The notes beneath the pieces are model-generated. The model was not told where the DNA came from. It did no database searches and saw only the letters and a program-made list of their open reading frames with translations. A DNA stretch of 32,000 bases, from assembly GCF_900289195.1 (NCBI RefSeq), contig NZ_OMOH01000004.1, forward strand, positions 180,001 through 212,000, read 5' to 3'. The stretch is from Propionibacterium ruminifibrarum (lineage in GTDB: Bacteria; Actinomycetota; Actinomycetes; Propionibacteriales; Propionibacteriaceae). Shown here piece after piece: positions 1 to 14,677 of this stretch (position 1 is the stretch's first letter; every line of letters starts with the position of its first letter). A program made the translations under genes and the position numbers.

Positions 1-103
1 TACTCATGTGACGGCCGACAGTCCGCAAGGATCGGTTCAGAACCGCCTCGGATGAGCGGTCATGGCTGCCCGACCCGACCCTCACCTCAAGCCGCGCGTC
101 GGA

Positions 104-937
104 TCAGAGGACATTCTCAGACCCGTCGTCGGCCCAGCCGCTCCTCGTGGTGAGGAGACGGGGCGAGTAGCTCACGTCGGCCAGGACGGGCAGCCGCTCC
201 CTGGCCCGGTCGGCCAGGGCGAGGTCGAGGTTGACGACGGCCAGGTCGGGCTGCTCCCCCAGTTCGAGGAGCACCCGGCCCGAGGGGTCCACGACCATCG
301 AGTGGCCCACCCCGGTGGGCAGACCGTAATCCTCGGCGGGGCCGGCCTGGTCGACGGCGACGACGAAGGACACCGAGTCCATCGCCCGCGCCGTGACGAG
401 GGTCCGCCACTGGTGCACCTTGTCCGGGCCGGGCGCCCAGGAGGCGCACACGAGCATGGCGCGGGCGCCGCGGCGGGCCAGCTCGGTGAACTGGGCCGGG
501 AAGCGGACGTCGTAGCAGATGGCGAGGCCGAGGCGTTCGCCCGCGACCTCGGCGACGACCAGCCGGTCGCCGGGCGCCACCCGGTCGGACTCCCGCTGCC
601 CGAGGGCGTCGAAGAGGTGGATCTTGTCGTAGCAGACCAGGTCCCGGTCCGTGACGAGAAGCGTGTTGCGCACCCTGCCGTCCGGGGCCGTCGTGAACAT
701 GCCAGCCGCGATGACGACGCCCAGCTCGGCGGCGAGGGCCTGCACGGCGCTCGCCCACGGCCCGCCGGCGGGCTCGGCCGCCCTCGCCGGGTTCCGGCGG
801 AAGGAACACATCGTGGCCTCGGGGAACACGACGAGTTCGGCCCCCTCGCGTGCGGCGCGGGAGGCGAAATCCGAGACCAGCGCCAGGTTCTCCTGGGGAT
901 CGGTGGTGACCGTGAGCTGGGCGAGAGCGATCCGCAT
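104..937 (-). CDS. carbon-nitrogen hydrolase (nitrilase superfamily) protein
   Basis: ORF 104..976 (-). The likely start is MRIALAQL (ATG at 937). The Glu-Lys-Cys triad contexts typical of this family are readable: VVFPEATM, YDKIHLFD, LAICYDVRFP. Confidence 0.85.
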   Translation of the reverse strand: MRIALAQLTVTTDPQENLALVSDFASRAAREGAELVVFPEATMCSFRRNPARAAEPAGGPWASAVQALAAELGVVIAAGMFTTAPDGRVRNTLLVTDRDLVCYDKIHLFDALGQRESDRVAPGDRLVVAEVAGERLGLAICYDVRFPAQFTELARRGARAMLVCASWAPGPDKVHQWRTLVTARAMDSVSFVVAVDQAGPAEDYGLPTGVGHSMVVDPSGRVLLELGEQPDLAVVNLDLALADRARERLPVLADVSYSPRLLTTRSGWADDGSENVL

Positions 938-1170
938 GGGCCCACTCTCGTCCCTGAGCGCCGCCTGCGGCAACACCCTCTCGCGGGGACCCGACCCTGC
1001 CGTCCGCGTTCGCCCTCACCGACGCGATACAGCATCGCCCACTCGCGGGCCGTGACTCATGCTCCGCCGGGCACAACGCCTTCGCGGCGCGCCAATACTG
1101 AATCACCGGTGCGTCTCCGGGACTGTGGACAGTGCCGCGCGCCCGACCGTCCGGTTCTAGACTTCGCGGC

Positions 1171-1533
1171 ATGGCCGTCTTCGAGCAGCACACCACCCTC
1201 AGCAGGCAGTACCCCCTGCCCTACGCCACCGTCTTCAACGCAGTACCCCAGGTGATCCAGCACCTGGGCCACCGACTGCAACACGCGGACCCGAACCAGG
1301 GCATCATCCGGTTCTCGACCGGCATGAGTCTCACCACGTGGGGCGAGAACCTCACGGCGCAGATCGCCCCGGTCGACCCGCAGCAGTCGGCAACCGCCGT
1401 CCAGCTGACCTCCAGCGGCGCCCTGCCCACGCTCATCGCTCAGGGCAAGCGCAACCGCAAGGTGATCAACGCGTTCTTCGATGAGTTGGACCGGGCCCTG
1501 CAGTGGCAGCAGGGCGCCCCCGGGCAGGGCTGA
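1171..1533 (+). CDS. hypothetical protein (about 120 aa)
   Basis: ORF 1132..1533 (+). The internal ATG at 1171 (MAVFEQHTTL...) is more plausible than the GTG at 1132, which adds an R/S/G-rich head. Amino-acid composition is natural. I recognise no family. Confidence 0.5.
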   Translation: MAVFEQHTTLSRQYPLPYATVFNAVPQVIQHLGHRLQHADPNQGIIRFSTGMSLTTWGENLTAQIAPVDPQQSATAVQLTSSGALPTLIAQGKRNRKVINAFFDELDRALQWQQGAPGQG

Positions 1534-1591: not shown

Positions 1592-2530
1592 CTATTCGAG
1601 CCCCATGACGAACCGCCGACTGAATACCATCCCCGGTTGGATAACGAGCGTTCCGTCCTCGGGCAGATCGAGGTCGTGACCATGACTGGCGGCACGATCA
1701 TGGACCTCTTGGTAACTACCCATCTGAGGTTCGATCGTGCCGTCCGGCGCCCAGTAGAAGACATTGCGGCTCAAAAGCCCTCCGGGATTGTTGAACCCCG
1801 CCTCAGGGGTGAAGGAGCCAATCATCTGGGCGATGCCGAGGATACTGGTGAGGCCTTCTTCGCGCGTCGGGAGCGAATACATCAGGAGTGACCGGTTCGG
1901 CACCGCGAAGAGCAGGCCGTCAGGCGCCTCCACGCCGAGCCGCCCCAGCAGCGCGGGTATGTTCCCGATCTTGGACGCGATGAACATCGAGTCGCCTGTT
2001 ACAAAGTGCACGCCACCCTCGTCGAAGGTTTCATCGATCGGTTCAGCATCGGTGTTGATCTGCCCCAAACCGAAGAGCACGTCAAGAGGCACCTCAAGAT
2101 CGCCGATGTTCTTGTCGGTCAGCGTGACGACATGGGTCGGGTAGTCGAGGCAGAGCACTTGGAACAGGCCCTCTGCGAAAGGGCGTCCATAGTCGCAGCC
2201 GTCGGCATCGGCTGTGGCGATGATGCGGGTGTACACGATGGGCAGCACTTCATCAACGCTGAGCCTGGGTGCCGACTGGGCCCGGGATGCCTCAATGGCG
2301 AATTGCACCCATCGTTGCAACGTCGCCTCCCACTGTGACTGCGGGGTTCGCATCAGGTCGTCTGCGACGTTCTCCATCGACAACCTGCCCATGTCAGCGA
2401 GCTGGAGGGCTTTGCCATGCTCGGTCATGACGGGTTCCGCGGTGATGCCTTGCCGGACCAGTTCCTGGATGAGGTAACCCGCGGCACCGTTGAGCACCGA
2501 ATCCCTGTCCGGCCCTTGATCAGCACTCAT
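1592..2530 (-). CDS. hypothetical protein (313 aa), family not recognised
   Basis: ORF 1592..2692 (-). The ATG at 2530 (MSADQGPDRD...) follows a GGAGG (revcomp of cctcc at 2536-2540) with about 5 nt spacing. Composition is protein-like throughout. GC is visibly lower than in the core genes of this window. Confidence 0.7.
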   Translation of the reverse strand: MSADQGPDRDSVLNGAAGYLIQELVRQGITAEPVMTEHGKALQLADMGRLSMENVADDLMRTPQSQWEATLQRWVQFAIEASRAQSAPRLSVDEVLPIVYTRIIATADADGCDYGRPFAEGLFQVLCLDYPTHVVTLTDKNIGDLEVPLDVLFGLGQINTDAEPIDETFDEGGVHFVTGDSMFIASKIGNIPALLGRLGVEAPDGLLFAVPNRSLLMYSLPTREEGLTSILGIAQMIGSFTPEAGFNNPGGLLSRNVFYWAPDGTIEPQMGSYQEVHDRAASHGHDLDLPEDGTLVIQPGMVFSRRFVMGLE

Positions 2531-2807: not shown

Positions 2808-3600
2808 TCATGGCTCGACAGAACCCTGTTAAGGCCAGCTGCCGTGATATACGAGACCGACCCGATTAGATGCAGCTCTACCAAAGCACTCCCGTCGCAA
2901 GGCATCAGGACAGTGGTCGCCGCTCCCTCGAAACACCAGAATCCCTCAGATCGAGGGTGAAAGCCGAAGCGATCGACGCCAAGCACCTCTCGACTCTGCT
3001 GTGTCTGGATGCGTCCACCGCAGTGACGGTCCCCGACGAGTTGACCGAGGCTGCTCGTAATCTTGTCAGGGTCCGTGAGGACTGCCGCCCGGATCTGACG
3101 CGGGTCCGGCACCGGTTGTCGAAACTGCTGCTGCGACACGGGATCGCCAACTTCGCGGGGGCAGGCCCGGCCCAGGGCTCATAACGCGTGGCTACGCGGG
3201 CAGCGGTTCGATTCACTCCACCCGGGCCTCATTCGATAAAGCCTACGAGAGTGTGGCCCCGATCACGGCACCGTGACCGTCTCGACGAACACATCGCCGC
3301 CATGGCCGTTGACAGCCGATACACGCCTGTGAGCCGAGGGCTGGGGGTTTGCGTGGAATCTCCACCCTGACCAGGTTCGCCCAGTGGTCAAGATCAATGA
3401 CTGGTCCCAGTTCATTGGTAACTCGCTCGCCGGACTAGTCCTCTCGAAGAATTCGTCAGGACAGAAACGAAGCCAAGGGCCAGTCACCAAGACCAACAAC
3501 AGCCATGCCTGTGGCGCACCTCACCACTCCACGCCAGAGCCAGCAGCAAGAGCACCCATACCCTTCATATCTCGCGACGACAGAAAGCAGGAGATTACAC
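2808..3600 (+). pseudogene. IS110-family transposase remnant (5'-truncated, frameshifted, in-frame stop)
   Basis: Consecutive pieces in different frames match the conserved central and C-terminal parts of IS110-family transposases. They are AVIYETDP..GIRTVVAAPSK (frame of ORF 2631..2960); AIDAKHLSTLLCLD..TAVTVPDELTEAARNLVRVREDCRPDLTRVRHRLSKLLLRHGI (ORF 2870..3184, closed by TAA at 3182..3184); RDRLDEHIAAMAVDSRYTPV (ORF 3188..3370); and INDWSQFIGNSLAGLVLSKNSSGQKRSQGPVTKTNNSHA (ORF 3384..3608). The N-terminal catalytic region is absent. Confidence 0.7.
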
Positions 3601-5412
3601 TTATCTAATGATCATCTCATCGATACGCGCGACATCGCGAGCTGGGTCCTGGGCAGCGGGATACACGGTGAACTCGTAATAGTTAGGATGCGCGATCTGC
3701 AGTGACGGAAGTGGAGACTCTCTGAGTCGAACGAGGATGAAGGTGTCTGCGAGGAGGTCTAAACTCTTGGCGCGATCGGTGTCGAATTTGTCGCGATGCC
3801 AGTATGATCCGTCGTATTCAATTGCGAGTCGCTCATCCGCTGTCAGATTAACTAACACATCAATAGTCCACGACGAATGGGTTCGGAATCTTGCAGAGTG
3901 GACGCGAAAGCCTGATTTCGCATTCCCCCATCGCGCGAGAGCCGCCAAATAGTACTCGCCCTCAATCCGCGACTTGCCAGTTTCAATACACTCGGGACAT
4001 TGAGATCCATTAACTCTGGCTGTCGGCATTGCCCGCCATACGTGAGTCGGATCATTTTTACATACCCACAGGGGCGGTTCTTTAAGTTGGGTGGTATTTG
4101 AACGAATTTCCCATGGGGAAATTGGATTATCAACCGACCACTCTTCAGCCAGTTCTGGATAGTGATATGCCAGCGAGTCAAGGATAGTGCGGCACAGCGG
4201 ACACCTCCAGCGGTCGTACTTGTCGCGCTCACGGGGCGTGGCTTGGAACTCATGACCACAGACAGGATCTCGCCACCAGATCATGCGACGAGAGTTTGGA
4301 GAGATGTTCGCGAGTCGCAGATTGCCGTTCTTCGTAGGATGCCATTGACTACTGATCTCGGGCGTCAACCGGCTTGCGGCAGGGTTCACATCCGCTCGTT
4401 TTGCATTAGCCTCGCGCGTCTCGTTAGCCTTGCAAGCAGAACAGCCATCAAAAAGATAACTGAGAGGGCTGCGCGTATTGCGATGACCAGAAGGGCATCG
4501 AAATCTGTAGCCCGAGCCCATGTATTTCTTATCGACCAGAACATTCGCTGGCGGGATGTCTTCGTCCCAAGCAGTCAAAAGCTCGGGCACGTCAGCAATG
4601 GTCTTCCCCCTAAGCAACGCCAACTTTTCTTCCCAAGCCGCCCGCCTAATCGATTGACACTCCGGACACGAGAAGGAGTCGTTCGTGACATCGAGGATAC
4701 GAGCTTTGAATGAATGACCTTCAGAACAAGTCCACCAGGCTTCGCGACGGGATTTGATCGTTGCGACTTCCCAAAAGGAATCCGAGTTGCATTCGTGATC
4801 CCACCATACGATCGCTCGATTGTCAGAGTTCTTGAGAAGGTTCGCACCCTGAGTCTTCTTGGTGCCTACTGTCGCAGTTTTTTGATTTCGCCGACATGAA
4901 CAGCCCCAACCAATATCCCCGCTTCGCTGCGCCTCAACTCTGCCACAGGAATTACAGCGTGTAGCATGGGGGTCATCTTCAAGACTGGGATTCGTTAGCG
5001 GACCAAGATAAGTGAACCCATTCTCTTCCGCAGCCTGTCGCACGGTGGATATATCTACGGCCCGTTCAGCTCTGCCCGACATGGAACGTGCGTTTCTAGC
5101 CCACGAACGCCAGTAGCACGCTCGACAAACAGCTTCACCAACTTGTATTCGGTCAAGAATATACTCGAAACGGTAGTGCCCTTGGAAATTGCATCGTATA
5201 CATCGAGTCAACAAGTAAGCAGATGGCTTGGTGAAGTCTTCAAGCAGGATCAGGCCACCTTGAGAATAAAGTTGACAGAGGTGATCGCGGCACCATGTTG
5301 GCCGCGTTCGAGTTGCAAATGCTCCGGGTTGTTCACACCCTTCCACACTGCAAGTCTTCATGATGTACCTCATTTCGTCCTTGACTATTAACACCATAGT
5401 TGAACCACTCAT
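3601..5412 (-). CDS. multi-zinc-ribbon protein with C-terminal Vsr/DUF559-like PD-(D/E)XK nuclease domain
   Basis: This is an uninterrupted 603-aa ORF in the lowest-GC stretch of the window. Four tandem repeats (about aa 190-253, 275-328, 350-407, 415-475) follow the pattern W..(N/D)...(S/P)....WW.C..GH.(F/W)......R.....CP.C, which resembles DUF4379-type treble-clef zinc ribbons. Extra CxxC pairs lie in the N-terminal 180 aa. The C-terminus (about aa 478-565) reads SRIEGE...WTIDVLV...LAIEYDGSYWH...DTDRAKSLDLLADTFILVRLRE, the E / D / E-x-DG..H / D..R...L...vlR pattern of Vsr/DUF559-type endonuclease folds. The start is uncertain among 5412, 5373 and 5361; the ATG at 5361 (MKTCSVEGC) has a GAGG 6 nt upstream. 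Confidence 0.8.
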   Translation of the reverse strand: MSGSTMVLIVKDEMRYIMKTCSVEGCEQPGAFATRTRPTWCRDHLCQLYSQGGLILLEDFTKPSAYLLTRCIRCNFQGHYRFEYILDRIQVGEAVCRACYWRSWARNARSMSGRAERAVDISTVRQAAEENGFTYLGPLTNPSLEDDPHATRCNSCGRVEAQRSGDIGWGCSCRRNQKTATVGTKKTQGANLLKNSDNRAIVWWDHECNSDSFWEVATIKSRREAWWTCSEGHSFKARILDVTNDSFSCPECQSIRRAAWEEKLALLRGKTIADVPELLTAWDEDIPPANVLVDKKYMGSGYRFRCPSGHRNTRSPLSYLFDGCSACKANETREANAKRADVNPAASRLTPEISSQWHPTKNGNLRLANISPNSRRMIWWRDPVCGHEFQATPRERDKYDRWRCPLCRTILDSLAYHYPELAEEWSVDNPISPWEIRSNTTQLKEPPLWVCKNDPTHVWRAMPTARVNGSQCPECIETGKSRIEGEYYLAALARWGNAKSGFRVHSARFRTHSSWTIDVLVNLTADERLAIEYDGSYWHRDKFDTDRAKSLDLLADTFILVRLRESPLPSLQIAHPNYYEFTVYPAAQDPARDVARIDEMIIR

Positions 5413-5539
5413 ACAACCAGCTCGTACGAGTAATAACTAATGCCCCAACCAAGGTTGAAAGCTTTGACCACACGCAATCGCAGGATCGCGTCCGTAGCGA
5501 AGAGCTGCCACTGGGAACAGTCCTAGCCCTGGTGCGGGC

Positions 5540-6142
5540 ACGGCATGGGGACGAGGAGTCCAGGTGAATGAGACAGCATGGCGTTGACTAGGAGCGGAGC
5601 GTGTACTGGGTGCGACGTGGTGGGCCTCGTCCTCCACGAGGACGTCGAAGGCGTAGCGGCGCGCCGACCCCGCCCTGCCGTCGTCGGCGAGCAGCAGATT
5701 GGTGCGCGGGGCCTCCAGGGCTCGGCGCAGCGGTTCGAGCTGGTAGGACTCCCGAGCGGAAGGGCGCCTGGAAGGCCTTCGGGTCGGCCGAGGTCACCGC
5801 GCCCCAGCGGACGGCGTCGACGAAGGCGCCGAGCGTGTCCGGCTCGTCGAACGAGGATGCGTCGATCGTCTCGGGCAGGCCGCGGTCGGGGACGATCGAG
5901 GTGCCGACCTCGAGCTCCCAGACGACGGTGAGTTCCTCGCCCATGCGGTCCTCGGCGAGTGACTGCAACGCGACCAGGTGTTCCAGGCCGGCACGTGCCT
6001 CGTCTGCGGGGCTGCGGGACAGGCCCTGCTCACGGACGTCGGTGACCGCCCAGGTGGCGCCACGGACCTGGACGACCTGGCCGGGTTCTGGCACAGAGAC
6101 CGGCCCTGTGGGCGTGGACGTGTTGAGCTGTTCGGTGGTCAT
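5540..6142 (-). pseudogene. SF2 (SNF2/DEAD-like) helicase remnant: N-terminal domain plus collapsed motif I-II region, 3' part lost
   Basis: ORF 5588..6166 (-) starts MTTEQLNT..GQVVQVRGATWAVTDV...LTVVWELEVG...FDEPDTLGAFVDAVRWGAVTSADPKAFQAPFRSG. It then turns into R/G/P-rich text. Shifting frame near 5750 gives SYQLEPLRRALEAPRTNLLLADD, followed about 12 aa later by FDVLVEDEAHHVAP. Motif I (..ADDxGxGKT) has lost its GKT and is almost fused to motif II (DEAH). Recognisable sequence ends near 5540 at the junction with low-GC DNA. Confidence 0.6.
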
Positions 6143-7000: not shown

Positions 7001-7255
7001 GGTCCGAATACTACTGGGAGCGTTGCCGCACGCAGGTGGCGCTGTGGCGGGCCGGGTGAGCTTTCGACGCATCGCTGGCGGGTGGGGTCGGACCGTCATG
7101 GCGATCTCGACCGTCAATCAGTTGTCGGGCCTGGCGCGACCTGACGTTGCTGCCGCTGCGCGCGGAATCCGCATCAAGGGTCCAGCCGACCCGCTCGACC
7201 GCCCAGCGGAGCAGCTCAGGGGCGACGCCGACATGGGCGACCACCGCAGCACCTC

Positions 7256-7789
7256 CTAAGAGACCGAGAAGGTCATGCGCACATCGCCCGACCCGAGCAG
7301 CGCGCCCAGTTCGTCGTCGCTCATGCCCCGGATCCTTCCCAGCCTCGTGTACTCCCAGGTGTTGGATCCGTAGAACACGACGATCTGGTCGCCCGTGTAC
7401 AGGACGATGTCGCCGGCCTCCGTGGTGATCCGCTCGTCGTCGTGGGGTAGGTCGAAGCCGAGGCCACCGACCTGCTCGAAACCGCCGTACCTCGACATCT
7501 GCACGGTCACCGGCTCGTCCGCGGCGGCGTCGGCCAGCGCGCGGACCGTCTCGTTGTCCTCCCACGCGACGTCGACGTCGCGGCCGTCTATGGACAGGGT
7601 GAGCATGCCGTCCTCCTCGTCGTGTCGCGCGGTGGACGAGCCCGTGGGCGAGGACTGCCCGGCGGCGGGTGCGTCGTCGGCGCCACCGCTCCCGCGGCCG
7701 CAGCCTGCCGAGGCGACGAGTGTCGCGGAGGCGGCCCCGGTGAGCAGCGCCGCGAAACCCCGGCGCGACAGGGCGATCCTGTTCAACAT
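7256..7789 (-). CDS. cyclophilin-like-fold lipoprotein (Tat-type signal)
   Basis: ORF 7256..7861 (-), with the ATG at 7789. The N-terminus MLNRIALSRRGFAALLTGAASATLVASAGCG has a twin-arginine motif (SRRGFAAL) and a lipobox (SAGC). The C-terminal domain (LTLSIDGRDVDVAWEDNETVRAL...GDIVLYTGDQIVVFYG) resembles the cyclophilin-like family. Confidence 0.7.
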   Translation of the reverse strand: MLNRIALSRRGFAALLTGAASATLVASAGCGRGSGGADDAPAAGQSSPTGSSTARHDEEDGMLTLSIDGRDVDVAWEDNETVRALADAAADEPVTVQMSRYGGFEQVGGLGFDLPHDDERITTEAGDIVLYTGDQIVVFYGSNTWEYTRLGRIRGMSDDELGALLGSGDVRMTFSVS

Positions 7790-7883: not shown

Positions 7884-8111
7884 CTATTCCTCTTGCCCGT
7901 CCGGCCCGGCGATCCTGCGGAATGCGACCGTCTGGTTCTTCAGGGATATCTTGTCGACCCGATAGCCGAAGTCGAGCAGTTCCTTCTTGTAGGTCAGGAA
8001 GGAGTGGTCGATCGGTACACCGGCGATGTCGCCGATCTGCTCGAAACTCAGCTGGAACGACGAGCGGCCGTCTTCCTGCACGTGCCGCCACAGTGCGTCG
8101 TACTTGCTCAT
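7884..8111 (-). CDS. small conserved hypothetical protein (75 aa)
   Basis: ORF MSKYDALWRHVQEDGRSSFQLSFEQIGDIAGVPIDHSFLTYKKELLDFGYRVDKISLKNQTVAFRRI... The pattern (MSKYD.LW..., PIDHSFL.YKKEL, trailing beta-hairpin-like K.S.K..TV.F) resembles a widely scattered small-protein family I cannot name. Confidence 0.6.
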   Translation of the reverse strand: MSKYDALWRHVQEDGRSSFQLSFEQIGDIAGVPIDHSFLTYKKELLDFGYRVDKISLKNQTVAFRRIAGPDGQEE

Positions 8112-8150
8112 GTGTTCCCCTCCCCCCTGAACACCAGGTTCACGAGCCGT

Positions 8151-9473
8151 CTACTCGGCGCCCGTGCGCAGCCAGCGACCGGTCCGGGCGCGCAGGGTGA
8201 GGGTCAAAGCCCGGGCAGCGAGGAAACCAGAGTAGGCCACCCACAGCCAGACCAGGCCGGCGGGCCCGCCGGTGCACCAGTGCGCCACCGCCACGAGCAT
8301 CGGCAGGTGGCAGGCCGCGACGAACATCCCGGCCAGCGCCAGGTAGCGGGTGTCGCCGGCGCCGATGAGCACCCCGTCGAGCACGAACACGAGCGCGGCC
8401 AGCGGCATGATGGCCGCCAGCACGACGAAGGAGTGCATGGCCAGCTGCTGCACCGCCGCGTCGGAGGTGAACAGCCGCACCAGCGGGGGCCTGAGCGCGA
8501 CGAGCAGCAGCCCCATGACGACGGCCTGCACGCAGCCCCAGCCCAGGGCCCGTTTCATGACAGTCCGCGCCCCGGCCGTCTCGCCGGCCCCGAGGTGGCG
8601 TCCGATGAGGGCCTGGCAGGCGATGGCCAGGGAGTCGAGGGCGAAGGTGAGGACGGTGTACAGCGAGTTCGTCACCTGGTGGGCGGCCAGGGTCAGCGAG
8701 CCCAGGCCGGTGGCGACGACGGTGGTCGCGGTGAGCGAGAACCACAAGGTGGCGGTGCGCAGCACGAGCCAGCCCCCGGACGACGCCGAGGCGACCATGC
8801 CGCGCGGGTCCGGGCGCAGCCGCATGCCCAGCCCTCGGCAGCGGCGGATGATGACGGCGGCGAGCGCGAGGCACGACAGCCCCTGGGCGGTGGCGGTGGC
8901 GACGGCCGAGCCGGCGATCCCCAGGCCGAAACCGTAGATGAGCAGGGCGTCCAGGCCGATGTTCGCCACGTTGACGCCGATCGCCACCACCATGGGGGTG
9001 CGGGTGTCCTGCAGGCCGCGCAGCAGCCCGGTCGAGGCGAGCACGACGAGCTGGAAGGGCAGGCCGGCCGCGACGATCCGCAGATAGGTGACGGCCGCGT
9101 CGGCCACGTCCGGCGCGGGCCCGTACCAGCCGACGATCGTCGGGGCCAGCAGGGCGAGCAGCCCGGCGAGCACCACACCGAGCGCCCCGCCGAGGGCCAT
9201 GCCGTCACGGCCGGCCTCGTAGGCCGCCAGGTCGCGGCCCGCGCCGAGGCGGTGGGCGACGACGCTGGTCGTCGAGTAGGCCAGGAAGACGCACATGCCG
9301 GTGATGACGCCCAGCACGTTGCCGCCCAGCCCGAGTCCTGCCAGCGGGACGGCGCCGACGTGCCCGATGAACGCGGTGTCGGCCATGACGAGCAGCGGCT
9401 CGGAGACGAGGGTGGCGAAGGTGGGCAGGGCCAGCGCCAGCAGGTCACGGTCGTTTCTCGTCCACAGCGCCAC
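8151..9473 (-). CDS. MATE family efflux transporter
   Basis: ORF 8151..9629 (-). It is polytopic and hydrophobic throughout, with the typical MATE N-terminus DLLALALPTFATLVSEPLLVMADTAFIGHVG. The most plausible start is the GTG at 9473 (VALWTRNDRD); the 5' 52 codons of the ORF run into AT-rich promoter DNA. Confidence 0.85.
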   Translation of the reverse strand: MALWTRNDRDLLALALPTFATLVSEPLLVMADTAFIGHVGAVPLAGLGLGGNVLGVITGMCVFLAYSTTSVVAHRLGAGRDLAAYEAGRDGMALGGALGVVLAGLLALLAPTIVGWYGPAPDVADAAVTYLRIVAAGLPFQLVVLASTGLLRGLQDTRTPMVVAIGVNVANIGLDALLIYGFGLGIAGSAVATATAQGLSCLALAAVIIRRCRGLGMRLRPDPRGMVASASSGGWLVLRTATLWFSLTATTVVATGLGSLTLAAHQVTNSLYTVLTFALDSLAIACQALIGRHLGAGETAGARTVMKRALGWGCVQAVVMGLLLVALRPPLVRLFTSDAAVQQLAMHSFVVLAAIMPLAALVFVLDGVLIGAGDTRYLALAGMFVAACHLPMLVAVAHWCTGGPAGLVWLWVAYSGFLAARALTLTLRARTGRWLRTGAE

Positions 9474-9500
9474 GGGCCACGAGGCTACCCCGCCGGCCCG

Positions 9501-9545
9501 GTAACCGGGGTGAAACACAATCGTTACAAATATCTTGACGTCAAG
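9501..9545 (+). promoter_or_regulatory. putative GlnR-type box plus 12-bp palindrome in the MATE/gdhA divergent region
   Basis: GTAAC-cggggt-GAAAC-acaatc-GTTAC-aaatat-CTTGA (9501..9538) follows the actinobacterial GlnR consensus gTnAc-n6-GaAAc-n6-GtnAC-n6-GAAAc, with a poor last half-site. The perfect palindrome CTTGACGTCAAG lies at 9534..9545. Confidence 0.3.
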
Positions 9546-9604
9546 ACATGAGATTGCTTCATTTCGCGCAGGTCGCGGTGACATATTCAAGATGTCCCCG
9601 GTGA

Positions 9605-10987
<1,383 letters not shown>

Positions 10988-12671: not shown

Positions 12672-13463
12672 ATGGCCGCGGCGAAGAACTGGAAGAAGCG
12701 GTGGCTGCCGAATCAGCACGGGGCGTGGGCGATGCTCATCGTCCCCTTCGTCGTCGGCGCCCTGACCCGCCATCGCGCGGACGGGCTGCCGATGTGGTGG
12801 GTCCCGCTGGCCGTCATGTGGCTCGTCGGCTACTGCCTGTTCGCCCAGTGCGTCAGCTGGCTGAAGACACCGGCACGGCGCCGGGGCGAGCTGCGCACCC
12901 CGATCATCACCTACTTCGTCGTCTGCGTGGCCTGCGGCCTGGTGGTCCTGGCCCTGGGCGGGGCCGGACTGGCGATCTGGCTGGTGGGTTTCGCACCCCT
13001 CGTCGCAGCGGCATTCGCCCTGGTCCGCAACCGCGAGGAGCGTTCGGTCACCTCGGGCATGACGACGGTCGCGGCGGCCTGCCTCATGTTCTACGTGGTG
13101 CGCTGCGGCGGCTGGCCGGTGCTCAGCCCCGGCCTGCACGACACGGTGACCGGGATTCTGCTGTACGGCTACTTCGCCGGCACCGTCTTCCACGTGAAGT
13201 CCTTCATCCGCGAGAAGAACAATCCGGCGGCGGCCCGCAACTCGACGCTGTGGCACGGGGCCTGGCTCGTCGCGGCGGCAGTCGCGTGCGGGCCCTGGCT
13301 CGGCCTCGGCTCGCCCTGGTGGATCGTCTTCTTCGCAGTGGCCCTGGCCCGCACGATGGTCATGAAACGGATGCAGAACAACGGTTTCCCCTTCCGTCCG
13401 GGGACGCTGGGTGTCATCGAGATCATCCTCAGCGCCTCCGCCATCGCCTGCTCGCTGCTCTGA
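12672..13463 (+). CDS. YwiC-like family membrane protein
   Basis: 263-aa polytopic ORF. The N-terminus KKRWLPNQHGAWAMLIVPF matches my recollection of YwiC-like proteins. Confidence 0.65.
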   Translation: MAAAKNWKKRWLPNQHGAWAMLIVPFVVGALTRHRADGLPMWWVPLAVMWLVGYCLFAQCVSWLKTPARRRGELRTPIITYFVVCVACGLVVLALGGAGLAIWLVGFAPLVAAAFALVRNREERSVTSGMTTVAAACLMFYVVRCGGWPVLSPGLHDTVTGILLYGYFAGTVFHVKSFIREKNNPAAARNSTLWHGAWLVAAAVACGPWLGLGSPWWIVFFAVALARTMVMKRMQNNGFPFRPGTLGVIEIILSASAIACSLL

Positions 13464-13491
13464 GCGCCGCCCACCCCGCACTCCGCGCAAA

Positions 13492-13754
13492 CCCTGCGCT
13501 TCTCGTGTGTCATTTCACGACAGCCGCAGGCCCACGCACTCCAGCACAAGAGCTCACTCCAGCGTCCCGCACATGTTCCATACATAGGGCTGCGCTTCTC
13601 GTGCGTCTTTTCACGACAACCGCAGGACAGCCCGATGCGACCAGCTCCACCGCGAAACGCAGGGCGTTGGCCCCTCGCCGCAGCAGGACAAGCCAGCCCC
13701 AGCCTTCCACCTAGACCCTGCGTTTCCTGTGTGTCATTTCACGACGACCGCAGG
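13492..13754 (+). repeat. three tandemly spaced copies of a 39-bp palindromic hairpin repeat plus an inverted half-copy
   Basis: Copy 1 is 13492..13530, ccctgcgcttctcgtgtgtcatttcacgacagccgcagg. Copy 2 is 13588..13626, ggctgcgcttctcgtgcgtcttttcacgacaaccgcagg. Copy 3 is 13716..13754, ccctgcgtttcctgtgtgtcatttcacgacgaccgcagg. The half-copy is 13648..13668, caccgcgaaacgcagggcgtt. The outer arms CCTGCG/CGCAGG and the inner arms TCGTG/CACGA are mutually complementary. Confidence 0.85.
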
Positions 13755-13819
13755 ACTACCCGCCCCGGGCTTCGCCCGAAACGCGGGCCAGATCTTCCCC
13801 GCGGGACTACGGTGGGGCC

Positions 13820-14677
13820 ATGACAGCTGTTCCCGCATCGATGATCCGACTCAGCAACGCCACCAACGGCACCGTCGAGATCCCCCAGCTGGGTTTCGGC
13901 ACCTACAAGGTGCCGCCCGCCGAGGCCGAACGCGTCGTGGGCGAGGCGCTCGAGGTCGGCTACCGCCACATCGACACCGCGCAGATGTACGCGAACGAGG
14001 CCGGTGTGGGTCGCGCGATCGCCGCCAGCGGCATCGACCGTGACGACCTGTTCGTCACGAGCAAGCTCAACAACAGCAACCACGCCCGCGACGACGCCCT
14101 GCGGTCCTTCGACCAGACCCTCAAGGACCTTCAGCTCGAACGGCTCGACCTGTTCCTCGTGCACTGGCCGATGGCCGCCGCGACGAATCTCGTCGAGACC
14201 TGGCAGACCATGATCGAGATCCTGCAGTCCGGCCGGGTCCGCGCGATCGGCGTCTCGAACTACCAGCCCGACCACCTGCGCACGATCACCGACGCCACCG
14301 GCATCGCCCCGGCCGTCAACCAGGTCGAGATCAGCCCCTACCTGACCCAGGAGCCGCTGCGCGCCCTGCACACCCAGATGGGCATCGCCACCGAGTCCTG
14401 GTCGCCACTCGCCCGTGGCAAGGTGGCCGACGACCCGGCGATCAAGGCGATCGGCGAAGAACTCGGCCGCACCGCATCCCAGGTCGTGCTGCGCTGGCAC
14501 CTGCAGCGCGGCGACATCGTGTTCCCCAAGTCGATGCACCGCGAACGCATGGTCGAGAACGCCCAGCTGTTCGACTTCACGCTCTCGGCCGCCCAGATGG
14601 ACGCGATCAGCGCCCTCAACCGGGACGAGCGGCAGGGCAGCCACCCCGACGAGGTGCAGTGGACCAAGCAGCCCTGA
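13820..14677 (+). CDS. aldo/keto reductase (2,5-diketo-D-gluconate reductase-like)
   Basis: 285-aa ORF carrying LGFGTYK, GYRHIDTAQMYANE, FVTSKL and DLFLVHWP, which are canonical AKR blocks. Confidence 0.9.
   Translation: MTAVPASMIRLSNATNGTVEIPQLGFGTYKVPPAEAERVVGEALEVGYRHIDTAQMYANEAGVGRAIAASGIDRDDLFVTSKLNNSNHARDDALRSFDQTLKDLQLERLDLFLVHWPMAAATNLVETWQTMIEILQSGRVRAIGVSNYQPDHLRTITDATGIAPAVNQVEISPYLTQEPLRALHTQMGIATESWSPLARGKVADDPAIKAIGEELGRTASQVVLRWHLQRGDIVFPKSMHRERMVENAQLFDFTLSAAQMDAISALNRDERQGSHPDEVQWTKQP

What the first reader, a model, noticed from the sequence alone, without database searches (positions are those of the whole stretch)
3601..5412. Low-GC orphan gene: four tandem treble-clef zinc ribbons fused to a Vsr/DUF559-like nuclease, a candidate single-gene defence or selfish nuclease
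This 603-aa ORF sits in the most compositionally foreign DNA of the window, by eye roughly half G+C against about two-thirds or more in the flanking core genes. Its architecture is unusual. The N-terminal 180 aa is rich in CxxC pairs. Four tandem repeats of a W..N/D...WW.C..GH.F/W....CP.C unit follow (aa ~190-475, nt ~3988-4845). The terminal domain (aa ~478-565, nt ~3718-3981) carries the E / D / IEYDGSYWH / D..R...L...vlR signature of Vsr/DUF559-type PD-(D/E)XK endonucleases. A repeated nucleic-acid-binding array feeding a nuclease is the logic of many recently found single-gene anti-phage effectors and of homing-type nucleases. The neighbourhood fits a defence-island turnover site, with an IS110 remnant on one side and the stump of a defence-type helicase on the other. 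I know of no characterised function for this domain combination.
Basis: partly seen in the sequence, partly recalled or inferred. Interest (0 to 1): 0.72.

Follow-up and report, generated by a model that had tools for sequence, protein, structure and literature searches.

The report
Mobile zinc-finger-array Vsr-type endonuclease gene
This is an intact, recently imported gene for a DNA-cutting enzyme guided by a string of zinc fingers; it belongs to a large family that nobody has tested in the lab, and here it sits where a phage-defence system was lost.

Summary
ORF 3601-5412(-) is real, though the true start is probably 5361, giving 586 aa. It has 52% G+C against 69% in the host, Propionibacterium ruminifibrarum.

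The protein has three parts:
- a Cys-rich N-terminus, with a CCCH knuckle and two related modules;
- four homologous DUF4379 treble-clef repeats;
- a C-terminal Vsr/DUF559-type PD-(D/E)xK nuclease, in which all five residues of the 'EDxHD' homing-endonuclease motif are invariant.

It is not an orphan. More than 500 full-length homologues exist in Actinomycetota, and the superfamily has about 9,700 cluster representatives. The same architecture is common in giant viruses and phages. A 2025 paper noted it as a putative new homing-endonuclease group.

The family has no partner gene and is under strong purifying selection (dN/dS 0.07-0.18). Copies lie in changing positions: plasmids, prophage ends and defence islands.

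In the window the gene lies beside the 5' stump of drmD, where related bacteria carry a complete DISARM operon. An IS110 remnant lies on the other side.

Best reading: a stand-alone, zinc-array-guided DNA endonuclease carried as mobile cargo, most likely used for defence or exclusion. Selfish homing is the main rival. It is a new member of a known but untested kind.

The parts
3601..5361 (-). Zinc-array/Vsr-type endonuclease gene: 586 aa plus stop. The maximal ORF extends to 5412.
   Evidence: ORF. Homologues and the gene call on the identical contig begin at MKTC. GAGG lies 6 nt upstream of ATG 5361. The protein is identical to SPF68291.1 of Propionibacterium ruminifibrarum.
5281..5361 (-). 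N-terminal CCCH zinc knuckle (aa 1-27; C4, C9, C24, H27).
   Evidence: The four ligand residues are nearly invariant in 44 sequences. No family match.
5086..5280 (-). Cys-rich module NA (aa 28-92; C54, C57, H62, C79, C82).
   Evidence: Invariant ligands. hhalign NA-NB 86% and NA-R1 71%. Model pLDDT is about 90.
4882..5052 (-). Cys-rich module NB (aa 104-160; H132, C136, C139, C154, C156).
   Evidence: Invariant ligands. Related to NA.
4654..4842 (-). DUF4379 treble-clef repeat R1 (aa 174-236).
   Evidence: Pfam PF14311. hhalign R1-R3 98%, E=9e-14.
4429..4605 (-). DUF4379-like repeat R2 (aa 253-311), the most divergent repeat. It is missing in some homologues (P0034, P0037).
   Evidence: hhalign R1-R2 88.5% and R2-R4 75%. 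Sequences of the variants that lack it.
4189..4380 (-). DUF4379 repeat R3 (aa 328-391), the best-conserved module.
   Evidence: Best Pfam stretch, aa 354-408 in the 603-aa numbering. Sequence match to trypanosome mt-SAF33/mS66 DUF4379. Conservation profile.
3985..4188 (-). DUF4379 repeat R4 (aa 392-459).
   Evidence: hhalign R3-R4 95.5%. Invariant C434, H440, C455, C458.
3604..3984 (-). C-terminal Vsr/DUF559/EDxHD-type PD-(D/E)xK nuclease domain (aa 460-586). Key residues: E467, D501, E515, D517, H522, D529, K532.
   Evidence: A profile of the domain hits I-Bth0305I (3r3p, E=0.0023) and a DUF559 structure (3hrl, E=0.51, not significant). 23 of 25 members hit MTES_1575 and DUF559. Domain model pLDDT 89.8, with Foldseek hits to Bax1, McrC, R2 RLE, BspD6I and Can2. 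Invariant residues.
5608..6142 (-). Pseudogene: the 5' stump of drmD (DISARM SNF2 helicase). It is frameshifted, carries an internal deletion of about 285 bp, and is truncated at about 5608.
   Evidence: BLAST against the intact allele in L103. PADLOC DrmD E=0 for the intact allele and 5.5e-62 for the stump. Complete DISARM operon at the syntenic site in P. acidifaciens.
2870..3184 (+). Probable IS110-family transposase remnant (end of the DEDD domain).
   Evidence: PF01548 E=8.3e-5, 22.8 bits, below the cut-off of 29; profile positions 88-152 of 155.

Best explanation
**What it is.** The gene encodes a stand-alone DNA endonuclease built like a modular reading head attached to a blade. Seven zinc-binding modules probably bind nucleic acid, most likely a long stretch of DNA. 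They are one CCCH knuckle, two N-terminal Cys modules and four DUF4379 treble-clef repeats.

**How it cuts.** The modules position a C-terminal Vsr/EDxHD-type PD-(D/E)xK domain that cuts with Mg2+. The predicted catalytic residues are E467, D501, D517, H522 and D529. By analogy with I-Bth0305I it probably acts as a dimer.

**How it travels.** The gene moves as single-gene cargo of prophage ends, plasmids and variable islands in Actinomycetota.

**Likely role.** I think its most likely biological role is defence or exclusion: cutting incoming phage or plasmid DNA that carries its target while the host genome lacks it. That would make it a homing-endonuclease-type enzyme working for its carrier.

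**In this genome.** It reached P. ruminifibrarum recently from a lower-G+C actinobacterium. It now lies where a DISARM system was deleted.

**Shown:** the architecture, the conserved ligands and catalytic residues, purifying selection, mobility, and the genomic context.

**Inferred:** DNA rather than RNA as substrate, sequence specificity, dimerisation, and the defence role.
For: **Architecture and active site**
- Pfam DUF4379 hit and repeat homology.
- Invariant Cys/His ligands and acidic/His residues in 44 sequences spanning 44-81% identity.
- The EDxHD residues map one to one onto I-Bth0305I E170/D196/N208/H213/D222.
- PD-(D/E)xK structural matches.

**Functional constraint**
- dN/dS is 0.07-0.18.
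- 75 of 80 genomic copies are intact.

**Single-gene cargo**
- No conserved neighbour in 86 loci.
- DNA homology to the nearest relatives stops within about 100 bp of the ORF.
- Full-length copies occur on Streptomyces, Mycobacterium, Rhodococcus and Arthrobacter plasmids.

**Defence-type context**
- In the window the gene lies next to a drmD stump at a site that carries full DISARM in P. acidifaciens. Sister strains differ there by a Peptidase_M78+DUF4411 module.
- In Actinomyces, Gleimia and C. pelargi it lies beside Abi_2, and in Actinomyces and Gleimia also beside SLFN_AlbA_2.
- In C. glutamicum it lies near HEPN_Apea and DUF4238.
- Nearest neighbours elsewhere include type I, IIG and III R-M, GmrSD, UzuA, JetC, BilD, a DRT reverse transcriptase and HEC-06.

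**Prophage cargo slot**
- In four viral contigs the gene sits at the prophage end, against the large serine integrases.
- A related prophage carries an AlbA_2-like gene in exactly that slot instead.

**Other**
- The 586-aa family is absent from sequenced actinophage genomes; the phage database gave only 5 distant hits.
Against: - No experiment exists for any member, as far as the searched literature shows.
- No PADLOC model matches the protein.
- The closest solved nuclease relative is a homing endonuclease.
- The same architecture inside phage introns has been interpreted as a homing endonuclease.
- Many viral relatives are annotated as homing or restriction endonucleases.
- Variable islands collect selfish DNA as well as defence genes, and my neighbour counts have no background control.
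- In Nocardia the gene lies among metabolic genes.
- How a lone nuclease would spare the host genome is unknown.
- The solved DUF4379 proteins bind ribosomal RNA, not DNA.
Confidence: 0.45

Rival explanations
1. It is a free-standing homing endonuclease gene, a purely selfish element. The enzyme would cut a specific site in genomes that lack the gene, and recombinational repair would copy the gene in.
For: - The nuclease carries the full EDxHD composite motif, and its best solved relative is I-Bth0305I.
- The architecture matches that described for homing endonuclease genes inside phage group I and II introns.
- PHROG and BFVD relatives are annotated as homing or HNH endonucleases.
- The unit of transfer is essentially the ORF alone: 91-92% DNA identity over about 2 kb between a prophage, Corynebacterium pelargi and Arachnia.
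- The gene's G+C differs from its host's.
- Repeat number varies from 3 to 14 across the superfamily, as expected for changing target length.
- Free-standing EDxHD homing endonucleases (Hef) are known.
Against: - Flanking genes are not conserved, so no common target locus is visible.
- In the prophage slot the gene alternates with an unrelated gene rather than with an empty site.
- The putative reading modules are among the most conserved parts of the protein across orders, which does not fit diverging targets.
- In most genomes the gene's G+C matches that of its flanks (mean difference -0.007), and nearly all copies are intact, unlike a typical homing-gene decay cycle.
- It is not in an intron or intein, and it is absent from actinophages.
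Confidence: 0.3
2. It is an RNA-directed nuclease or RNA-binding regulator. The treble-clef modules would bind structured RNA, and the Vsr-like domain would cut or hold RNA.
For: - The only solved DUF4379 proteins are parts of trypanosome mitoribosomes or their assembly intermediates.
- A paper title found in the literature search calls the mitochondrial RNA-binding protein FASTKD4 'Vsr-like'.
Against: - The catalytic constellation is the DNA-cleaving Vsr/EDxHD set, and it is invariant.
- Relatives with this architecture are associated with mobile DNA.
- There is no link to ribosomal or RNA-processing genes in 86 loci.
Confidence: 0.08
3. In this genome the gene is a passenger: an intact leftover of a decayed integrative element or prophage end that landed in the DISARM locus through IS-mediated rearrangement. 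It would have no current role for the host.
For: - IS110 remnant and pseudogenised drmD on either side.
- Serine-recombinase remnants lie beside close relatives in L017, L018, L021 and L026.
- Decayed or chimeric copies exist: Gleimia europaea pseudogenes and the ZnR-Abi_2 fusion P0079.
- No promoter-like site was detected.
Against: - The ORF is intact and identical or nearly so in several metagenomic strains of the species.
- The family is under strong purifying selection.
- There is a good Shine-Dalgarno sequence.
- The promoter scan covers only the sigma-70 consensus, which fits actinobacterial promoters poorly.
Confidence: 0.12

Closest known systems
Putative homing endonucleases built from CapR/DUF4379/DUF723-like repeats plus an EDxHD/Vsr-like nuclease (NAR 2025, gkaf761, PMC12350094)
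   Same: Same plan: several zinc modules of about 60 aa, then a Vsr-like nuclease of about 100 aa. The authors note thousands of mostly unannotated relatives. My search found about 9,700 cluster representatives.
   Different: Those genes sit inside group I or II introns of phage genes. This one is free-standing in a bacterial chromosome. It has an extra N-terminal Cys-rich region of about 170 aa with no family match. It belongs to a 586-aa family found only in Actinomycetota. None of these proteins has been tested in the lab.
I-Bth0305I, the EDxHD homing endonuclease family (PDB 3R3P; NAR 2011, PMC3239194)
   Same: Best profile match among PDB sequences (E=0.0023). All five composite-motif positions correspond: E467, D501, D517 (Asn in I-Bth0305I), H522 and D529.
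   Different: I-Bth0305I uses NUMOD/helix-turn-helix DNA-binding motifs and is encoded in a group I intron in phage recA. Here the reading head is a zinc-module array and the gene is not in an intron. The sequence similarity is weak.
Giant-virus and phage proteins with multiple DUF4379 repeats plus a restriction-endonuclease domain (for example Lausannevirus/Insectomime ISTM_159, and Marseillevirus proteins named 'Restriction endonuclease')
   Same: Near full-length structural matches, E down to 4e-18, with 164 viral proteins at E<=0.001. [quoted passage not shown]
   Different: Only 11-21% sequence identity. The hosts are eukaryotic viruses or phages of other phyla. Their function is equally untested.
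Vsr very-short-patch repair endonuclease and DUF559/MTES_1575 nuclease domains
   Same: Same nuclease fold and the core motif (ExDG..WH). Its residues line up with Vsr D51, H64, H69 and D97 through I-Bth0305I.
   Different: No Dcm methyltransferase partner and no Vsr zinc site. The Pfam scores of the window protein stay below the curated cut-offs: 18-21 bits against 38.2. There is a large zinc-array extension.
Single-gene defence cargo at prophage ends and in defence hotspots (for example Abi_2/AbiD-like, AlbA_2/Schlafen-like and GmrSD genes)
   Same: Same kinds of location: next to prophage integrases, on plasmids, and in islands with R-M, Abi and DISARM genes. It is interchangeable with an AlbA_2-like gene in one prophage slot.
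   Different: No PADLOC family matches. No phenotype is known.

Membership tests
DUF4379 (PF14311) treble-clef zinc finger | Match to the Pfam model above the gathering score | tested here: met
   89.3 bits against a cut-off of 24.5, E=1.8e-25, 3 stretches.
DUF4379 (PF14311) treble-clef zinc finger | Conserved Cys/His zinc ligands in each repeat | tested here: met
   C212/C232/C235, C289/H293/C307/C310, C368/H370/C387 (90% or more)/C390 and C434/H440/C455/C458; all are invariant in 44 sequences except C387, which is nearly invariant.
DUF4379 (PF14311) treble-clef zinc finger | Similarity to solved DUF4379 proteins | tested here: met
   phmmer against mt-SAF33 (6sga_Fd) E=0.0017. Foldseek against 6yxx_E2 2e-6 and 7pua_Fd/6sga_Fd TMt 0.62-0.64.
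EDxHD / Vsr-like homing endonucleases (I-Bth0305I) | C-terminal Vsr-like PD-(D/E)xK nuclease fold | tested here: met
   Profile against 3r3p E=0.0023. Foldseek top hits are all PD-(D/E)xK nucleases, at modest E values of 2e-3 and weaker.
EDxHD / Vsr-like homing endonucleases (I-Bth0305I) | Composite E-D-x-H-D catalytic residues (E170, D196, N208, H213, D222 in I-Bth0305I) | tested here: met
   E467, D501, D517, H522 and D529 are invariant. D517, H522 and D529 are placed by the alignment to 3r3p; E467 and D501 are assigned by motif position, because that alignment does not reach them. The motif definition comes from PMC3239194.
EDxHD / Vsr-like homing endonucleases (I-Bth0305I) | Encoded in an intron or intein, or free-standing at a fixed site with gene-less alleles that it cleaves (homing) | tested here: not met
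   Not in an intron or intein. Flanks differ between genomes. In the prophage slot the alternative allele carries another gene. Cleavage itself cannot be tested here.
EDxHD / Vsr-like homing endonucleases (I-Bth0305I) | N-terminal NUMOD/helix-turn-helix DNA-binding region | tested here: not met
   The N-terminal part consists of zinc modules. No NUMOD or HTH family was found.
CapR/DUF4379/DUF723-repeat + Vsr-like nuclease group (NAR 2025) | Three to five (or more) zinc modules of about 60 aa followed by a Vsr-like domain of about 100 aa | tested here: met
   Four DUF4379 repeats, two related N-terminal modules and the nuclease. Description.
CapR/DUF4379/DUF723-repeat + Vsr-like nuclease group (NAR 2025) | Residence inside a phage group I or II intron | tested here: not met
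   Chromosomal and free-standing. The gene's 3' half (aa 297-544) matches a phage protein family (phrog_559) annotated as HNH endonuclease, and the phage database gave only 5 distant hits. No RNA-family scan for introns was run, but the gene is flanked by pseudogene fragments, not by exons.
DUF559 (PF04480) / REase_MTES_1575 (PF18741) | Match above the Pfam gathering score | tested here: inconclusive
   Window protein: 18.3-21.5 bits against a cut-off of 38.2. 23 of 25 family members hit both models below the cut-off, best E=3.4e-7.
Vsr mismatch-repair endonuclease | Pairing with a Dcm-type cytosine methyltransferase; short single-domain protein | tested here: not met
   No methyltransferase next to the gene in the window or as a recurrent neighbour. 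The protein is 586 aa with a zinc array.
Known anti-phage defence systems (PADLOC-DB v2) | Match to any defence protein model | tested here: not met
   0 families at E<=1.
Known anti-phage defence systems (PADLOC-DB v2) | Protection against phage or plasmid challenge | not testable with these tools
   Needs cloning and challenge experiments.

The most novel reading that the evidence does not exclude
The 586-aa actinobacterial family is a new single-gene anti-phage or anti-plasmid system. A fixed array of six or seven zinc modules recognises a conserved feature of invading DNA, and a homing-endonuclease-type Vsr nuclease destroys it. The gene is traded as a cassette between prophage ends, plasmids and defence hotspots. 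This would be a homing-endonuclease lineage turned to immunity.
Probability: 0.35. Interest if true: 0.7.

Novelty: new member of a known kind. Interest (0 to 1): 0.45.

Why it matters
If members of this very large and untested superfamily are sequence-specific nucleases, their target length may be set by the number of treble-clef modules (3 to 14). They would then be a natural modular DNA-recognition scaffold, of interest for enzyme engineering.

If the actinobacterial branch defends its host, it would add a one-gene system to the sparse defence catalogue of Actinomycetota. It would also be a second example of homing-type nucleases recruited for conflicts between mobile elements and hosts.

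For this genome, the locus records a defence swap: DISARM was lost and a foreign nuclease cassette was gained.

Tried and rejected
**Searches that found nothing**
- NCBIfam and PADLOC scans of the protein.
- The N-terminal 185 aa against Pfam and PDB sequences. My guess that it would match CapR or DUF723 was not borne out; only internal hhalign links to the repeats appeared.
- Terminal direct or inverted repeats around the cassette: only short matches expected by chance.
- tRNA genes as an integration site.
- DNA-level search of plasmids with the cassette.
- A conserved partner gene in 86 loci.
- Abi_2 or serine-recombinase remnants in the window.
- Literature searches for DUF559 with zinc ribbon, treble clef with anti-phage, and PF14311.

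**Analyses of limited value**
- The sigma-70 promoter scan found no site; it is uninformative for an actinobacterium.
- Looking up the CN-hydrolase to find an alternative right-hand junction returned only the window's own contig.
- Foldseek of the isolated nuclease domain gave only modest E-values. The fold assignment therefore rests on agreement between the HMM, motif and structural hits.

**Ideas rejected**
- P0079, an 'Abi_2 + DUF4379 fusion', is not a designed architecture. It is a deletion chimera of two adjacent genes.
- The Curtobacterium plasmid with 11 matching places was inspected but settled nothing.
Full report
**1. The observation**

The window holds an ORF at 3601..5412 on the minus strand, 603 aa long. 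Three things point to ATG 5361 as the real start, giving 586 aa:
- Almost all of the more than 500 homologues start at the position of query residue 18, MKTC.
- The gene call on contig L097, which is 100% identical to the window, is 586 aa.
- A GAGG lies 6 nt upstream of ATG 5361.

The gene is 52.4% G+C. The rest of the window is 69.4%. The low-G+C block spans about 3400-5550 and ends sharply near 5550-5600.

The organism is Propionibacterium ruminifibrarum. The protein is identical to SPF68291.1 (UniProt A0A375I2E1), which its submitter named 'ssDNA-binding transcriptional regulator'.

**2. Anatomy of the protein**

*The repeats.* Pfam finds DUF4379 (PF14311, 'probable treble clef zinc finger') at 89 bits in three stretches. 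Profile-profile comparison of the four units I delimited gives:
- R1-R3 98%
- R3-R4 95.5%
- R1-R4 92%
- R1-R2 88.5%
- R2-R4 75%
- R2-R3 10%

So there are four homologous repeats, and R2 is the most divergent. Some homologues lack R2 altogether.

*The N-terminus.* The N-terminal 170 aa match no Pfam or PDB family. They do carry invariant Cys/His ligands. They split into a CCCH knuckle and two modules, NA and NB. NA and NB resemble each other (86%) and, more weakly, R1 (71%).

*The nuclease.* The C-terminal 125 aa form a PD-(D/E)xK nuclease of the Vsr/DUF559 kind. The evidence:
- The window protein hits MTES_1575 below the Pfam cut-off.
- 23 of 25 family members hit both MTES_1575 and DUF559.
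- A profile of the domain finds I-Bth0305I (3R3P, E=0.0023) as its best PDB-sequence match, followed at E=0.51 by a DUF559 structure.
- AlphaFold models are confident: pLDDT 87.9 for the full length and 89.8 for the domain.
- The models match Bax1, McrC, the R2 restriction-like endonuclease, BspD6I, PaqCI and Can2/Card1, at modest E-values.

*The active site.* The I-Bth0305I paper defines the family's composite EDxHD motif as E170, D196, N208, H213 and D222, equivalent to Vsr E25, D51, H64, H69 and D97. The corresponding residues here are E467, D501, D517, H522 and D529. All are invariant in 44 sequences that are 44-81% identical to the window protein.

**3. Not an orphan, and not an unknown combination**

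- Full-length relatives of about 586 aa occur across Actinomycetota. Examples are Actinomyces, Gleimia, Arachnia, Corynebacterium, Rothia, Arthrobacter, Nocardia, Gordonia, Mycobacterium, Rhodococcus, Streptomyces, Kitasatospora and Amycolatopsis.
- A scan of one genome per species found 204 loci that encode a relative; all 80 that were listed are from Actinomycetota.
- An exhaustive search of 1.84 billion cluster representatives gave 9,734 hits at E<=0.001 and 1,009 at E<=1e-30. Many are proteins of 700-1,400 aa with 5-14 repeat stretches, and in many of them the match runs on into the nuclease domain.
- The predicted structure matches 164 viral proteins at E<=0.001, often over nearly the full length. 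They include giant-virus proteins named 'restriction endonuclease' and phage proteins named 'homing endonuclease'.
- A 2025 NAR paper describes homing endonuclease genes in phage introns with 3-5 CapR/DUF4379/DUF723-like domains plus an EDxHD/Vsr-like nuclease. [quoted passage not shown]
- I found no experimental work on any member.

**4. How the family behaves**

*It is constrained.*
- dN/dS is 0.07-0.18 between the window gene and its nearest relatives, and among those relatives.
- 75 of 80 genomic copies are intact.

*It has no partner gene.* In 86 loci, the commonest neighbour clusters were:
- tyrosine integrases, 8 loci
- an ABC transporter, 7 loci
- Abi_2, 5 loci
- rve transposase fragments, 5 loci
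- AlbA_2/Schlafen-like proteins, 4 + 4 loci
- resolvases, 4 loci

*It lives on mobile DNA.*
- Full-length copies lie on plasmids of Streptomyces, Mycobacterium, Rhodococcus and Arthrobacter.
- pRHL2 carries two copies that are 66% identical.
- In four IMG/VR contigs a 77%-identical copy sits at the very end of a prophage. It is convergent with, and overlaps, the first of two large serine recombinases. Endolysin and tail genes follow.
- Remnants of that recombinase lie beside the gene in C. pelargi, Arachnia, Rothia and a Dermabacteraceae genome.
- A related prophage (L131) lacks the gene. In the same slot it carries a 426-aa AlbA_2-like gene. The slot is bounded by the recombinase 3' end and a conserved 85-bp segment.

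*The gene moves almost alone.*
- DNA similarity between the window and its nearest relatives is confined to the ORF plus about 15-60 bp.
- The prophage copy shares 91-92% DNA identity over only about 2 kb with C. pelargi and Arachnia.

*Composition.* In most genomes the gene's G+C matches its flanks (mean difference -0.007). In the window the difference is -0.17. The nearest relatives live in hosts of about 54-57% G+C. This indicates recent import.

**5. The window's neighbourhood**

- Upstream of the gene, at 5608-6142 on the minus strand, lies the 5' end of drmD, the SNF2 helicase of DISARM.
- The intact allele in a sister strain (L103) matches PADLOC DrmD at E=0 (1,226 bits). The stump still matches at 5.5e-62.
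- The window copy is frameshifted, has an internal deletion, and ends at about 5608.
- In Propionibacterium acidifaciens the syntenic site, after the DUF4241 gene, carries DrmD (1,074 aa), a methyltransferase of about 1,410 aa, and a large helicase of more than 1,300 aa.
- Sister strains also differ by a Peptidase_M78+DUF4411 pair and an IS inserted nearby.
- On the other side, 2870-3184 is a weak IS110 DEDD-domain remnant.

**6. What it most likely does**

*Molecular level (confidence about 0.85).* It is a zinc-module array joined to an active Vsr/EDxHD nuclease. I infer that the array reads DNA and that the nuclease cuts with Mg2+, probably as a dimer like I-Bth0305I.

*Biological level.* Two readings compete.

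I favour a defence or exclusion role (0.45). The reasons:
- It sits at the prophage integrase-proximal cargo slot and alternates there with an AlbA_2-like gene.
- It lies next to Abi_2, SLFN_AlbA_2, HEPN_Apea, GmrSD and R-M genes.
- Roughly one in ten nearest neighbours is a strong PADLOC hit.
- Here it occupies a former DISARM site.
- The family is long-lived, intact and ameliorated in Streptomyces and its relatives.
- Its putative reading modules are highly conserved.
- It is absent from sequenced actinophages.

The selfish homing reading (0.30) rests on:
- the nuclease lineage;
- the intron-borne relatives;
- the single-gene unit of transfer.

Against the homing reading:
- there is no common target locus;
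- in the prophage slot the gene alternates with another gene, not with an empty site.

The two readings can merge. A homing-type nuclease carried by a prophage or plasmid could cut competitors. An RNA-directed role (0.08) and a mere-passenger status in this host (0.12) are less likely.

*Caveats.*
- The neighbour statistics lack a background control.
- The fold matches of the isolated domain are individually weak.
- Nothing here measures activity.

**7. Novelty and score**

The finding is a correct and careful reading of an unusual gene. However, the architecture is already recorded in Pfam-based annotations of viruses and in a 2025 paper, and the family is large.

What is new here:
- the delineation of an Actinomycetota-specific 586-aa family with an extra N-terminal Cys-rich region;
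- its behaviour as a cassette at prophage ends, on plasmids and in defence hotspots;
- the DISARM-replacement context.

I rate it a new member of a known, functionally untested kind, with interest 0.45.

Noticed in passing
window 5608-6142 (-), compared with L103, L211-L215: A DISARM operon (DrmD, a methyltransferase of about 1,410 aa, and DrmA) is present at this site in Propionibacterium acidifaciens; an intact drmD, on a contig that ends inside the gene, is seen in a sister strain of P. ruminifibrarum. The window strain keeps only a frameshifted drmD 5' stump with an internal deletion.
   Followed up: yes
window about 7182-7256; L100, L103, L104, L211-L215: Sister strains and P. acidifaciens carry a two-gene Peptidase_M78 (ImmA/IrrE-like) + DUF4411 module next to the DUF4241 gene; in the sister strains it lies between the cyclophilin-like gene and DUF4241. 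Some also carry an IS481- or DDE_3-type transposase. The window strain lacks the module. This is a second variable slot in the same hotspot.
   Followed up: partly
window 1592-2530 (-) and 1132-1533 (+): A 312-aa ORF and a small ORF (about 120-133 aa) match no Pfam or PADLOC family. They lie in DNA of intermediate G+C (0.59-0.65) between the IS110 remnant and the CN-hydrolase gene. They may belong to the same foreign segment.
   Followed up: partly
window 2-1056 compared with L098/L001: Identity to the sister strain drops from about 99% to 96% left of position 1056, and the sister strain has about 170 extra bases at that point. This looks like a recombination boundary at the edge of the island.
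   Followed up: no
L128-L130 (protein P0079): A 598-aa chimera joins the first 336 aa of a ZnR-nuclease homologue to the C-terminal part of an Abi_2 protein. It apparently arose by a deletion between two adjacent genes, and it recurs in several samples.
   Followed up: partly
L020 and L024 (Gleimia europaea): Both copies of the gene in this species are broken (longest open stretches 497 and 539 aa). Copies in related Actinomyces are intact.
   Followed up: partly
L131 7613-8893 (-) and L109 8001-9761: Related prophages carry either an AlbA_2-like gene or the ZnR-nuclease gene in the same slot between the serine integrase and a conserved 85-bp segment. This is a cargo-exchange hotspot at the prophage end.
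   Followed up: yes
L016 (Rhodococcus jostii RHA1 pRHL2) 7992-9731 and 12712-14550: Two paralogues of the family, 66% identical, lie 3 kb apart near the end of a linear plasmid.
   Followed up: partly
proteins P0137, P0143, P0239 and others: Superfamily members of 1,000-1,400 aa show up to 14 DUF4379-like stretches. The number of modules varies widely, from 3 to 14.
   Followed up: no
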